Shown here one piece after another: positions 10,209 to 12,719 of a stretch of 64,000 bases of DNA. The stretch spans positions 4,736,001 through 4,800,000 of the forward strand of contig CM000152.2 in NCBI GenBank assembly GCA_000004695.1. Direction: 5' to 3'. The translations under genes were made by a program, and so were the position numbers. Below the pieces are notes generated by a model, which was not told where the DNA came from, did not search any database, and worked only from the letters and a program-made list of their open reading frames with translations. The stretch comes from Dictyostelium discoideum. Taxonomy: Eukaryota. Numbering within the stretch: the first letter of the stretch is position 1; each line of letters starts with the position of its first letter.

Positions 10209-10755
10209 ATGAAATTAAAAAACATTTTTTTGTTATTATTTATTTATATATTAGTATCTATTAGTTCACAACAACCGCAGCAGCAGCAGCAACAACAAAA
10301 TTTTATAGAATTATTTAAACCAGTTCAATTGATATACCCAGATTCAAACCACGATAGATTAATAATTAATGAAAGTTCAATTAATCTTTTAAATTCAGTA
10401 TTGAGTGAAGATAGATTATCAGTACTTGGAGTGGTTGGTACATTTCATTCTGGTAAATCATTCTTATTAAATCAACTATTAGGTACAACTGATAGTTTTA
10501 CAGTTGGGCCAACAGTTCATCCACAAACAATTGGTATTTGGATGTGGGCATGTAGAATTAAAGATGATAATGGTAAACAACATAATCTATTATTATTAGA
10601 TACTGAAGGTTTTTATTCAAGTAATGTATCTGAAACTTATGATGCTAAAATATTTGCAATTACAACTTTATTATCTTCTCATTTAATTTATAATTCTGTT
10701 AAAATTATTGATCAATCAGCTTTAGAATATTTAGAGTAAGTTTAATTTATTTAAA

Positions 10756-10827
<72 letters not shown>

Positions 10828-12719
10828 TATTAAAATTTTTATTTTATTATTTTAGATTATTATCAAGAAGAACACAATTATTTGCATTAAAATCACAAAT
10901 TAAATCAAATGAAATGAATCAAGAAATTTTAGGATTAAATAATATATTAAATTTCCCATCATTAACATGGGTAGTTCAAGATTTCTTTCAAGATATAGGA
11001 GATGAAACACCAACTCAATGGTTAAATAATTTATTGAAAGCACATAGTAGAGATAAAGGTGTTGATAGTAGTTTAATTTCAATCACTGATATTTTCCCTT
11101 CAATTGAATGTCATACATTATTTTTACCAAGTGGTGATAGAAATATATTAAGACATTTAAATAAAGCAAAATCAAATGATTTAAATCCAATTTATATTAA
11201 AGAATTAAATGAATTAAAATCCACATTATTTAAAAATGATAATGATAATGGTGGTGGTGGTGGTAAATCAAAATTAACAGGACCATCAATTAGTACATTA
11301 TTAAGATTATTAATTGAAGTTGCAAATGGTAATAAGTTTCCAACGGTACCATCAATTTGGAGTGGATTTATTAAACAACAACAACAATCAGCATTAGAGG
11401 ATAGTATTATAGCTTATAAGGATAAAATGTCAAGTATAACCAATGAGGATTCATTTTCAAAGCCACCATTATGTTTAAAAGAATTTGAAAAACTTGAATC
11501 ACAATCAAATAATTATGCAACCAATCTTTATAAACAATTATTATTTGGATTGGAAGAGGCATATAAACCAGGTCAACAAAAATTGGAAAGATTATTATCA
11601 GATAACCACCAATACTTTTTAAAAGAGAATTATTTTAAAATTCAAAATTATTGTCAAAGAATTTATAATGAAATGATTGAATCATTTGAAAATCAATTAG
11701 AGTCAATTAAAATACCAATATCTTCAAAACATTTCAATCATCAAACTTCAATTTTAAAAAATGAAATTATAAATCAATATAAAGAAATCACAAAACAATA
11801 TAACTTAAATCGAAACCAAAATCAAAATAACTATTTTGAAATATTTTTAAATTCATTAGAAAAAGATATTGAAAGGTTAATAAATGGTAAACAGTTACAA
11901 AATAGGAACGAGATTGAAATATTATTAACAAAATCAATTGATATGATATCAGAAAGATATAAATCATATATGAATCAACTCGATTTACCAATTACATTGG
12001 AACAATTAAAGAATGAGGATAAAAAGCATTATAATCAACTTTTAAATTCCAAATTTAAACAAATTACAGAGGTCGCTCATGAAGAATCTTATTATCAACC
12101 ATTCAAGTCAATGGCAGAGAAGCAATTACATCAACTATTTCAATACTTTCAAGAGATTAATGAACAAAAGATATTAGAGAAATCAAAATTTGAATCTGAT
12201 CAATCAATACTTGATTTCAAGAAAAGTGTATCACAAATCATTTTACCAATCGAAGAGGAATCATTGGTTAAATCAATGAATGAATTTAAAATTCGTTCAA
12301 TAAATTCTTACAAAAATAGATTGGAACCATTTAGAAATTCAAATTCTTATTCAACTCAATTAAATAAATTAGAATCTTCATTGGAAAAACAAATTGAATT
12401 GAAATTAAATGAAAATGTAACTCAAATGAAATGGATAGTAATGGAATCTTTAGATACTGTTAGAGTGATGATGATCTCTCGAACACCTATATTTTGGTTT
12501 CAACATTCCTATGAGAATGAAGCATATCGTGAAGCTGAAAAAAGAATTATTGATAAAATTAAATCAAAACCACTTCGTGATAAAGTTATTAAACAATTTA
12601 TAAATAATGATTTAAAACAACAATTAAATAGTTTATTTAAATTATCAACAATTTTATTAACTTTAGGTATAATTTTAATATTTTCAATTTTAATTTCATT
12701 TTCAACTATTAAAAAATAA
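10209..12719 (+). CDS. Guanylate-binding-protein (GBP)/atlastin-like dynamin-superfamily large GTPase. Two exons: 10209..10735 and 10856..12719. Intron 10736..10855. About 797 aa.
   Basis: G1 is GVVGTFHSGKSFLLNQLLG. The GBP-specific switch is HPQTIGIWMW (GBP HTKGIWMW). G3 is LLLLDTEGF. GBP motif LTWVVQDF is present. The GTAAGT donor is at 10736 and the ttttAG acceptor at 10854-10855, and the two ORFs join in frame (…ALEYLE|LLSRRTQLF…). The N-terminus is signal-peptide-like (MKLKNIFLLLFIYILVSISS) followed by poly-Q. The C-terminal hydrophobic anchor is LSTILLTLGIILIFSILISF. The long coiled-coil-like helical middle is typical of GBPs. Confidence 0.75.
10759..10822. repeat. (TA)n dinucleotide microsatellite (about 32 units) inside the GBP-like gene intron.
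   Basis: It is a direct atatatat… run at 10759-10822. Confidence 0.9.

What the first reader, a model, noticed from the sequence alone, without database searches (positions are those of the whole stretch)
10209..12719. GBP-like large GTPase with a predicted N-terminal signal peptide and a C-terminal membrane anchor
Seen directly: canonical GBP motifs are present (GxxxxGKS, T..GIWMW, DTEGF, W..QDF). The first 20 residues are a classic hydrophobic signal-like segment followed by poly-Gln. The last about 25 residues are a hydrophobic helix.

Established knowledge: GBPs are cytosolic or lipid-anchored. Atlastin/Sey1 relatives have C-terminal TM hairpins but no signal peptide.

Inference: this is either an ER-lumenal or type-I topology that is unusual for a GTPase, or an N-terminal signal-anchor. 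Either would be atypical for the family. The intron also contains a 64-bp (TA)n tract likely to be length-polymorphic.
Basis: partly seen in the sequence, partly recalled or inferred. Interest (0 to 1): 0.5.

Follow-up and report, generated by a model that had tools for sequence, protein, structure and literature searches.

The report
Dictyostelium GBP gene, already described
This is the known Dictyostelium discoideum gene gnbp, whose ER-membrane GBP-type GTPase has a published signal peptide and C-terminal anchor; the same layout proves ancient, and which side of the membrane the GTPase faces is still unsettled.

Summary
The two-exon gene at 10209-12719 (+) encodes a 796-aa protein that is 100% identical to D. 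discoideum AX4 'guanylate-binding protein' (gnbp, DDB_G0281639, Q54TN9, DdGBP).

It is already known. A 2021 review (PMC8565484) and a 2025 PLoS Pathogens paper (PMC12040241) report the predicted signal peptide and C-terminal TM. The 2025 paper also shows ER localisation and restriction of Legionella.

New here:
- The layout is not a Dictyostelium oddity. Among 237 homologues from Amoebozoa to sponges, cnidarians, echinoderms, amphioxus and chelicerates, 129 of 153 full-length proteins with a His P-loop (G..H.GKS) carry a signal-peptide-like N-terminus. Only 3 of 17 canonical Arg-P-loop GBPs do.
- The flanking charges of both hydrophobic segments give a type-I signature: GTPase lumenal, tail cytosolic.
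- 19 of 63 homologues have tails of 40 aa or more after the TM, which excludes tail-anchoring for them.
- The published conclusion that the GTPase faces the cytosol rests on proteinase-K loss of terminal GFP tags. A type-I protein would give the same result.

Verdict: a known gene and a known prediction, with an open and testable topology question.

The parts
10209..10735 (+). Exon 1 of gnbp (aa 1-175 plus 2 nt of codon 176)
   Evidence: The ORF starts at the first ATG after a stop. The donor GTAAGT is at 10736. The product is identical to the annotated AX4 protein.
10736..10855 (+). Single intron, 120 nt, GTAAGT...TTTTAG
   Evidence: Splicing restores the reading frame and the conserved sequence ...YLE|LLSRRTQLF....
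10759..10830 (.). (TA)n microsatellite inside the intron: 36 copies at 97%, with a perfect 64-bp run at 10759-10822
   Evidence: TRF reports the 36-copy array. The 64-bp unbroken run is read from the sequence.
10856..12719 (+). Exon 2 of gnbp (rest of codon 176 to aa 796, plus the TAA stop)
10209..10268 (+). Signal-peptide-like segment, aa 1-20: n-region MKLKN, 13-aa h-region IFLLLFIYILVSI, then SS. Small residues at -3/-1 allow cleavage after S19 or S20.
   Evidence: The same kind of segment occurs in 129 of 153 His-class homologues, with a basic n-region and an acidic downstream flank. In the AF2 model it is helix 4-20 at low pLDDT.
10269..10298 (+). Poly-Gln linker, aa 21-30, disordered
   Evidence: Sequence. 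pLDDT is below 50 over aa 21-30.
10320..11258 (+). Large GTPase (LG) domain, aa 38-310, interrupted by the intron. It begins at the conserved PVQLIYP motif.
   Evidence: Pfam PF02263 covers aa 50-305. It aligns to hGBP2 from residue 10. Foldseek gives TM-scores normalised to the target of about 0.76-0.88 against human GBP LG-domain structures.
10437..10460 (+). G1 / P-loop GTFHSGKS, aa 77-84. His80 sits where hGBP1 has the Arg48 finger.
   Evidence: G77, H80, G82, K83 and S84 are invariant in 63 of 63 sequences.
10527..10547 (+). Switch I / G2, TIGIWMW, aa 107-113
   Evidence: T107, G109 and W111 are invariant.
10599..10613 (+). G3, DTEGF, aa 131-135. The conserved N139-V-S sequon follows.
10968..10985 (+). 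G4-equivalent, WVVQDF, aa 214-219, where canonical GBPs have (T/L)RD. D218 is invariant.
11280..12611 (+). All-helical stalk, aa 318-761, about 200 aa longer than in human GBP1
   Evidence: The AF2 model is helical throughout, mostly at pLDDT above 90. phmmer aligns DdGBP aa 45-600 to hGBP1 residues 15-560. Foldseek alignments to GBP1, GBP2 and GBP5 span about 500-630 columns.
12642..12704 (+). Single C-terminal transmembrane helix, aa 772-792
   Evidence: Kyte-Doolittle 19-aa mean is 2.55. The AF2 model has helix 763-795.
12705..12719 (+). Four-residue tail TIKK plus the stop codon, basic on the C-terminal side of the TM

Best explanation
Identity (shown). The locus is gnbp (DDB_G0281639), the single guanylate-binding-protein gene of Dictyostelium discoideum. 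It encodes DdGBP, a 796-aa dynamin-superfamily GTPase.

Domain order (shown): a short N-terminal signal sequence, a poly-Gln linker, a GBP-type large GTPase domain with every nucleotide-binding residue intact, a long all-helical stalk, and one C-terminal transmembrane helix with a four-residue basic tail.

Published experiments (not mine). The protein sits in the ER and at ER contact sites with the Legionella vacuole. It limits Legionella replication and mediates the response to the autoinducer LAI-1.

Inferred here:
- DdGBP belongs to an ancient subfamily of GBPs that carry a signal peptide and a His P-loop. The subfamily is found across Amoebozoa and non-vertebrate Holozoa.
- The signal sequence most likely drives co-translational translocation, and the C-terminal helix acts as a stop-transfer anchor.
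- That gives a type-I orientation: GTPase domain and stalk on the lumenal (exoplasmic) side, and only the TIKK tail in the cytosol.

Confidence splits in two. Gene identity, family and ER anchoring are above 0.95. The type-I orientation is about 0.55, and that is the number given as the overall confidence.
For: Identity and family:
- 100% identity and coverage to the AX4 protein.
- Pfam GBP at 6e-45.
- Human GBP5, GBP2 and GBP1 at about 1e-37, atlastin at 1e-10.
- AF2 model with pLDDT 85.6; Foldseek top hits are the hGBP1 dimer at 2e-23 and GBP5.

Published biology:
- PMC12040241 reports co-localisation with calnexin, a knockout that allows more Legionella growth, and proteinase-K sensitivity of both terminal GFP tags.
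- PMC8565484 reports the signal peptide and TM prediction.

Nucleotide site under selection: G77, H80, G82, K83, S84, T107, D131, E133, G134 and D218 are invariant in 63 sequences.

Type-I signature across the subfamily (my own scripts):
- 129 of 153 full-length His-P-loop homologues have an N-terminal hydrophobic run, against 3 of 17 Arg-class homologues (Fisher p=4e-8).
- The hydrophobic run has a median length of 15, and 77% are 17 or shorter. That is signal-peptide length, not membrane-spanning length.
- Mean charge is +1.96 in the n-region and -0.89 in the 15 aa after the run. The N-flank is the more positive in 140 cases and the C-flank in 6 (p=3e-34).
- A small-residue -3/-1 site is present in 143 of 151.
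- For the C-terminal TM, the C-flank is the more positive in 54 cases and the N-flank in 4 (p=3e-12; means +2.41 and -0.35).
- 19 of 63 homologues have tails of 40-244 aa after the TM, too long for tail-anchor insertion.
- In a neighbour-joining tree of LG domains the proteins without a signal peptide form one clan. The few Arg-class proteins that do have a signal peptide fall with the signal-peptide clade.

Reading of the published assay (my inference): a protease-accessible C-terminal GFP placed after a single TM is what a type-I protein gives. The authors' own positive control, calnexin-GFP, is a type-I protein and behaves the same way.
Against: - The only published topology experiment was interpreted by its authors as showing a cytosolic GTPase domain (PMC12040241).
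- From general knowledge, no dynamin-superfamily GTPase is known in the ER or secretory lumen, and no lumenal GTP supply is established. Yet the guanine-nucleotide site is strictly conserved.
- DdGBP acts at ER-vacuole contact sites and was pulled down with a cytosolic Sec7 protein. Both fit a cytosolic face more easily.
- Many metazoan members end in a conserved aromatic hydrophobic segment with no tail, often preceded by Lys or Arg. That is not a textbook stop-transfer anchor.
- My signal-peptide and TM calls are heuristic scripts, not SignalP or DeepTMHMM.
- I found no clade-specific conserved Cys pairs, and only one conserved sequon, N139. N139 lies next to switch II and may be conserved for other reasons.
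- Sequon depletion in DdGBP (3 observed, 8.7 expected, p about 0.02) is weak. The window-wide baseline is 0.75 and other ORFs reach 0.44.
Confidence: 0.55

Rival explanations
1. Cytosol-facing ER GBP, the published model. The GTPase domain and stalk are in the cytosol. The protein is held on the ER by the C-terminal helix, in tail-anchor fashion, possibly helped by the N-terminal hydrophobic helix lying in the cytosolic leaflet. It would then act like atlastin or canonical GBPs on the cytosolic face, at ER-vacuole contact sites.
For: - The authors conclude this from proteinase-K sensitivity of GFP-DdGBP and DdGBP-GFP (PMC12040241).
- Every other GBP, atlastin and Sey1 GTPase works in the cytosol, where GTP is available (general knowledge).
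- The TM lies 4 aa from the C-terminus in DdGBP, as in tail-anchored proteins.
- The function at ER-Legionella-vacuole contact sites and the Sec7 pull-down both suggest a cytosolic face.
Against: - In a tail-anchored protein with a cytosolic body, a C-terminal GFP would be lumenal and protected, or insertion would fail. In fact DdGBP-GFP is at the ER, functional and protease-sensitive.
- The N-terminal segment has a basic n-region, a 13-aa h-region and a polar or acidic downstream flank. That orientation translocates what follows.
- TM flank charges are the reverse of what an N-cytosolic, C-lumenal anchor should show (54 against 4).
- 19 of 63 homologues have tails too long for tail-anchoring.
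- Conservation of a signal-peptide-like N-terminus in about 85% of subfamily members has no explanation under this model.
Confidence: 0.38
2. GPI-anchored or secreted GBP. The N-terminal signal peptide and the extreme C-terminal hydrophobic segment would be the two processing signals of a GPI-anchored precursor, and the C-terminal segment would be removed.
For: A signal peptide plus a hydrophobic segment at the very C-terminus is the classical GPI-precursor layout. Many metazoan members end exactly at the hydrophobic segment.
Against: - DdGBP ends in a basic TIKK. Most non-metazoan members have basic tails, some 40-244 aa long.
- The metazoan C-terminal segment is conserved in sequence (G..[AS][ST]I.GF..[YW]L...), which is not expected of a signal that is cleaved off.
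- By eye I saw no convincing run of small residues at an omega site.
- DdGBP-GFP keeps its C-terminal GFP, is at the ER and is functional.
Confidence: 0.03
3. Gene-model artefact. The hydrophobic N-terminus would not be part of the real protein, because of a wrong start codon or a missed exon.
For: None found.
Against: - There is no in-frame ATG between M1 and M112, and M112 lies after the P-loop at aa 77-84.
- The sequence upstream is homopolymeric A/T promoter-like DNA.
- The annotated AX4 protein is identical.
- D. firmibasis, Polysphondylium, Tieghemostelium, Balamuthia and more than 100 further homologues keep an equivalent N-terminus.
Confidence: 0.01

Closest known systems
DdGBP / gnbp (DDB_G0281639, UniProt Q54TN9) of Dictyostelium discoideum
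   Same: It is this gene. The protein is 100% identical over 796 aa. The length, signal peptide and TM prediction and the lack of a CaaX box match the descriptions in PMC8565484 and PMC12040241.
   Different: Nothing differs.
Human interferon-inducible GBP1, GBP2 and GBP5 (canonical GBPs; PDB 1dg3, 7e58, 7e59, 8cqb)
   Same: - The LG-domain fold and the G1, G2 and G3 motifs are shared.
- A helical stalk follows the LG domain.
- These are the best sequence hits (about 1e-37) and the best structure hits (2e-23).
   Different: - The canonical proteins have no signal peptide and no TM. They are cytosolic, and several have a CaaX lipid anchor.
- The P-loop Arg finger (hGBP1 Arg48) is His80 here and in 63 of 63 subfamily members.
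- G4 is QD here, not RD.
- The stalk is about 200 aa longer here, and Pfam GBP_C is not detected.
- In the neighbour-joining tree the canonical proteins form a separate clan.
Atlastin / Sey1 / RHD3 ER-fusion GTPases
   Same: They are GBP-related LG-domain GTPases permanently anchored in the ER membrane.
   Different: - They have two closely spaced TMs and both ends in the cytosol, with no signal peptide.
- Similarity is much weaker: atlastin-1 at 1e-10, and RHD3_GTPase at 20.9 bits against a cut-off of 42.4.
- DdGBP has a single TM.
Plant AtGBPL2 clade of GBP-like proteins
   Same: [quoted passage not shown]
   Different: - They are about 600 aa long with three predicted TMs, and a nuclear export and localisation signal in the C-terminal tail.
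- No sequence comparison with them was done here, so a direct relationship to the DdGBP subfamily is untested.
OPA1 / Mgm1 (general knowledge, not tested here)
   Same: They set a precedent for a dynamin-superfamily GTPase that is imported by an N-terminal targeting sequence, is membrane-anchored, and works outside the cytosol, in the mitochondrial intermembrane space.
   Different: The targeting signal, the compartment and the branch of the superfamily all differ.

Membership tests
GBP family (Pfam PF02263 LG domain) | LG domain scores above the family's curated threshold | tested here: met
   153.8 bits against a cut-off of 21.1, E=6e-45, aa 50-305.
GBP family | G1 P-loop GxxxxGK(S/T), G2 Thr, G3 DxxG | tested here: met
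   GTFHSGKS at aa 77-84, T107 and DTEG at aa 131-134. All are invariant in 63 homologues.
GBP family | P-loop arginine finger (hGBP1 Arg48; the equivalent in atlastin-1 is Arg77) | tested here: not met
   The position is His80, and it is His in 63 of 63 aligned subfamily members. Canonical-type hits have G.YRTGKS. The hGBP1 and atlastin residue numbers come from general knowledge.
GBP family | G4-equivalent (T/L)RD motif with the guanine-specifying Asp | tested here: inconclusive
   The motif is VVQD. D218 is invariant, but the Arg is replaced by Gln, Glu or Lys.
GBP family | Helical middle and effector domain after the LG domain (PF02841 GBP_C) | tested here: inconclusive
   PF02841 was not reported at E<=0.01. 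Against that, phmmer aligns DdGBP aa 45-600 to hGBP1 residues 15-560, the AF2 stalk is all-helical, and Foldseek aligns 500-630 columns to GBP1, GBP2 and GBP5. Some subfamily members do hit PF02841.
Atlastin / Sey1 / RHD3 | Two adjacent TM helices near the C-terminus followed by a cytosolic tail | tested here: not met
   There is one hydrophobic segment after the stalk, at aa 772-792, followed by 4 residues.
Atlastin / Sey1 / RHD3 | Closest sequence or profile similarity is to atlastin or RHD3 | tested here: not met
   Atlastin-1 scores 1e-10 against about 1e-37 for GBPs. RHD3_GTPase scores 20.9 bits, below its 42.4 cut-off.
Type-I membrane protein (topology class) | Cleavable N-terminal signal peptide: basic n-region, 7-15-aa h-region, small residues at -3/-1 | tested here: met
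   This was a heuristic test only. DdGBP has MKLKN, a 13-aa h-region and VSISS. The clade-wide statistics agree. SignalP and DeepTMHMM were not available, and actual cleavage was not tested.
Type-I membrane protein (topology class) | Single stop-transfer TM with the more positive flank on the C-terminal (cytosolic) side | tested here: met
   DdGBP flanks are +1 (N) and +2 (C). Across the clade the C-flank is the more positive in 54 cases and the N-flank in 4 (p=3e-12).
Type-I membrane protein (topology class) | The body of the protein is physically in the lumen (protease protection, glycosylation) | not testable with these tools
   The published assay followed only the terminal GFP tags (PMC12040241), so it does not report on the body of the protein.
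Tail-anchored protein (topology class) | No N-terminal signal sequence, and the TM lies within about 30-40 aa of the C-terminus | tested here: not met
   A signal-like N-terminus is present and conserved. The TM position fits in DdGBP, but 19 of 63 homologues have tails of 40-244 aa.

The most novel reading that the evidence does not exclude
DdGBP and its whole subfamily of His-P-loop GBPs with signal peptides (Amoebozoa, sponges, cnidarians, echinoderms, amphioxus, chelicerates, perhaps the plant GBPL2 clade) are type-I membrane proteins. Their guanine-nucleotide-binding LG domain and stalk would face the lumen of the ER, endocytic or phagosomal system, or the cell exterior. They would be the first dynamin-superfamily GTPases to work on the exoplasmic side of the secretory pathway. 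The published assignment of DdGBP to the cytosolic face would then be wrong.
Probability: 0.5. Interest if true: 0.75.

Novelty: already known. Interest (0 to 1): 0.35.

Why it matters
As flagged, the finding is a rediscovery. The gene, its signal peptide and TM prediction, its ER localisation and an anti-Legionella role are all in the literature.

What remains of value is the topology question. If the clade-wide type-I signature reflects reality, a conserved guanine-nucleotide-binding GBP domain sits on the lumenal side of the endomembrane system, in organisms from amoebae to invertebrates. Three things would follow:
- There would have to be a lumenal source of guanine nucleotide.
- The way DdGBP restricts Legionella would need rethinking, with action from inside the ER rather than on the vacuole-facing surface.
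- An ancestral GBP could meet ingested bacteria inside the phagosome rather than in the cytosol.

Dictyostelium already has the knockout and the tagged constructs, so the question can be tested directly.

Tried and rejected
- Start codon downstream of the hydrophobic segment: rejected. There is no Met before residue 112.
- N-glycosylation sequon depletion as a sign of lumenal exposure: inconclusive. DdGBP has 3 sequons against 8.7 expected (p about 0.02). The window's other ORFs average 0.75 of expectation and two reach 0.44-0.46. Metazoan members show no depletion.
- Conserved sequons: only N139-V-S/T qualifies (51 of 63). It sits beside switch II, so it may be conserved for catalytic reasons.
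- Clade-specific conserved Cys pairs that would suggest disulfides: none convincing. C261 is invariant but also aligns with a Cys in human GBPs.
- KDEL or HDEL-type endings among 237 homologues: none.
- Extra domains in unusually long members that might betray a compartment: none.
- GPI-anchor reading: rejected on tail charge, sequence conservation and retention of the C-terminal GFP.
- The paper's supplementary text gives no further topology detail.
- Literature searches for an earlier description of an invertebrate or amoebozoan signal-peptide GBP clade found only the Dictyostelium and plant papers. This library is incomplete, so prior work cannot be excluded.
- No rooted phylogeny with atlastin or Sey1 outgroups was possible, because no such sequences were available to the script. 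Only an unrooted neighbour-joining split was tested.
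Full report
**What is at the locus**

The window has about 22% G+C, long A/T homopolymers and poly-Gln and poly-Asn coding tracts. The region 10209-12719 (+) holds two ORFs that join through a 120-nt GTAAGT...TTTTAG intron at 10736-10855. The spliced CDS is 2391 nt and encodes 796 aa.

The product is 100% identical over its full length to 'guanylate-binding protein [Dictyostelium discoideum AX4]' (P0001). 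That is gnbp, also called DDB_G0281639, Q54TN9 or DdGBP. Residues on both sides of the splice junction are at least 90% conserved across 63 homologues, so the gene model is sound.

**Checking the observation**

All four motifs are present:
- GTFHSGKS, aa 77-84
- TIGIWMW, aa 107-113
- DTEGF, aa 131-135
- WVVQDF, aa 214-219

The N-terminus reads MKLKN, then IFLLLFIYILVSI, then SS, followed by QQPQQQQQQQ. The C-terminus has one strongly hydrophobic segment at about aa 772-792 (Kyte-Doolittle 2.55), followed by STIKK. The intron carries a (TA)36 array at 10759-10830 with a perfect 64-bp core.

**Family assignment**

- Pfam GBP (PF02263) matches at E=6e-45. RHD3_GTPase stays below its threshold.
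- Against PDB sequences, human GBP5, GBP2 and GBP1 score about 1e-37 and align through the stalk (DdGBP aa 45-600 to hGBP1 residues 15-560). Atlastin-1 scores 1e-10.
- An AlphaFold2 model built on the 63-sequence alignment is confident (mean pLDDT 85.6). It shows a low-confidence N-terminal helix at aa 4-20, a disordered poly-Gln, an alpha/beta LG domain, an all-helical stalk over aa 318-761 and a terminal helix at aa 763-795.
- Foldseek ranks the human GBP1 dimer (2e-23) and GBP5 first, with atlastin-1 behind.

So this is a GBP, not an atlastin or Sey1. It differs from canonical GBPs in four ways. It has His80 where they have the arginine finger. Its G4 reads QD where theirs reads RD. Its stalk is about 200 aa longer. 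It has no CaaX box.

**It is already known**

- A 2025 PLoS Pathogens paper repeats the prediction. It shows that DdGBP-GFP co-localises with calnexin in the ER and at ER contact sites with the Legionella vacuole, and that a gnbp knockout lets Legionella replicate better. It also shows that LAI-1 effects on migration and vacuole size need GBP (PMC12040241).
- The plant AtGBPL2 clade is also described as having a signal peptide plus TM helices (PMC12489281).

**What I add: the layout is ancient and defines a clade**

The word-indexed search and the exhaustive HMMER search returned 237 homologues. In total 3478 proteins score at E<=1e-3 and 243 at E<=1e-30. Named sources include:
- dictyostelids, Balamuthia, Pelomyxa and Physarum
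- ichthyosporeans
- sponges and Nematostella
- echinoderms, amphioxus and Lingula
- myriapods and many chelicerates

Using my own scripts, 129 of 153 full-length proteins with the His P-loop have an N-terminal uncharged hydrophobic run. Only 3 of 17 Arg-P-loop proteins do, and 6 of those 17 end in CaaX (Fisher p=4e-8). Among the first 120 homologues, several models that lack the run start at or inside the conserved PxQLV motif and look like truncated gene models.

An unrooted neighbour-joining tree of LG domains puts 17 of 22 non-His proteins in one clan. Four of the five non-His proteins outside that clan have a signal-like N-terminus and fall with the signal-peptide clade. The signal therefore tracks phylogeny.

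**Topology signals**

For the N-terminal segment:
- The hydrophobic run has a median length of 15, and 77% are 17 or shorter.
- The n-region has a median length of 5 aa.
- Mean charge is +1.96 before the run and -0.89 in the 15 aa after it. The N-flank is the more positive in 140 cases and the C-flank in 6 (p=3e-34).
- A small-residue -3/-1 site is present in 143 of 151.

For the C-terminal TM:
- The C-flank is the more positive in 54 cases and the N-flank in 4 (means +2.41 and -0.35, p=3e-12).
- 19 of 63 have tails of 40-244 aa after the TM, which a tail-anchor pathway could not handle.

Both signals independently predict a type-I protein, with the LG domain and stalk exoplasmic and the tail cytosolic.

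The nucleotide-binding residues are invariant, so guanine-nucleotide binding is under selection wherever the domain sits.

**Why the published topology does not settle it (my inference)**

The assay blotted for GFP after proteinase K treatment of membranes carrying GFP-DdGBP or DdGBP-GFP. Both signals were lost, and the authors concluded that the GTPase faces the cytosol.

- A C-terminal GFP after a single spanning TM is cytosolic exactly when the body is lumenal. The authors' positive control, calnexin-GFP, is a type-I protein that behaves the same way.
- An N-terminal GFP masks the signal. It turns it into an internal signal-anchor with a cytosolic N-terminus, or it stops translocation altogether. 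Either way the GFP is digested.
- If the protein were tail-anchored with a cytosolic body, the C-terminal GFP should be lumenal and protected, or insertion should fail.

The data are at least as compatible with type I as with the published model. No probe reported on the LG domain itself.

**Counter-arguments**

- From general knowledge, no lumenal dynamin-superfamily GTPase or lumenal GTP pool is known.
- DdGBP acts at ER-vacuole contact sites and was pulled down with a Sec7 protein.
- Many metazoan members end in a conserved aromatic hydrophobic segment with no tail.
- My predictors are heuristics.
- Supporting lumenal hallmarks are weak: one conserved sequon (N139, 51 of 63), modest sequon depletion in DdGBP (p about 0.02 against a noisy baseline), no clade-specific Cys pairs and no KDEL-type endings.

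I therefore give the type-I reading about 0.55 and the published cytosolic model about 0.38. A GPI precursor (0.03) or a gene-model artefact (0.01) is unlikely.

**Verdict**

The family assignment and the predicted signal peptide and anchor are right but already published for this exact gene, so novelty is 'already known'.

The layout is typical of a large, ancient GBP subfamily that carries signal peptides and a His P-loop. The orientation of the GTPase domain is a real open question that the existing Dictyostelium reagents could answer. Interest is 0.35 as flagged. If the lumenal reading were proven it would deserve about 0.75.

Noticed in passing
window 10437-10460 (aa 77-84), and all His-class homologues: The P-loop residue that is the catalytic arginine finger in human GBP1 (Arg48), and an Arg in atlastin, is His in DdGBP and in 63 of 63 aligned subfamily members (G..HSGKS). 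Canonical-type hits keep G.YRTGKS. The His co-occurs with the signal peptide (Fisher p=4e-8).
   Followed up: partly
window 10623-10631 (aa 139-141, N-V-S): An N-x-S/T sequon directly after DTEGF is kept in 51 of 63 homologues, with Ser and Thr alternating. It could be a glycosylation site if the domain is lumenal, or simply a switch-II functional motif.
   Followed up: partly
window 9920-9998 and 10107-10190: A 79-nt poly(A) run and two long poly(T) tracts lie in the intergenic or promoter region just upstream of the gnbp start codon. This is typical Dictyostelium intergenic DNA.
   Followed up: no
window 12825-13886 (-): A convergent downstream ORF of 353 aa matches DNA polymerase alpha/epsilon subunit B (PF04042, 6e-37) and the DNA polymerase delta subunit OB-fold domain (PF18018). 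Its stop codon lies only about 105 nt from the gnbp stop. The match begins at profile position 73 of 129 of the OB-fold model, so the ORF is probably one exon of a larger gene.
   Followed up: partly
window 6882-9746 (+): The upstream 954-aa ORF is Asn- and Lys-rich. Its only hit is a weak SAP-domain match below threshold (PF18953, 23.1 bits against a cut-off of 26.3).
   Followed up: partly
P0120 (homologue list): A 777-aa subfamily member with a signal peptide, a GBP domain and a TM is labelled 'MAG: hypothetical protein [archaeon]'. The rest of the family is eukaryotic, so this is probably eukaryotic contamination of a metagenome bin, not an archaeal GBP.
   Followed up: no
homologues P0016, P0049, P0062, P0082, P0107, P0111: Several metazoan and ichthyosporean members have a low-complexity linker of 50-125 aa, rich in Ser, Thr and Pro or in Cys, between the signal peptide and the LG domain. 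It resembles an extracellular stalk.
   Followed up: no
window 56048-58060 (+): Another ORF, 670 aa, starts with a hydrophobic signal- or TM-like N-terminus (MITQQWRFLYFGSLILCWVIFPVLQ). It was not examined.
   Followed up: no
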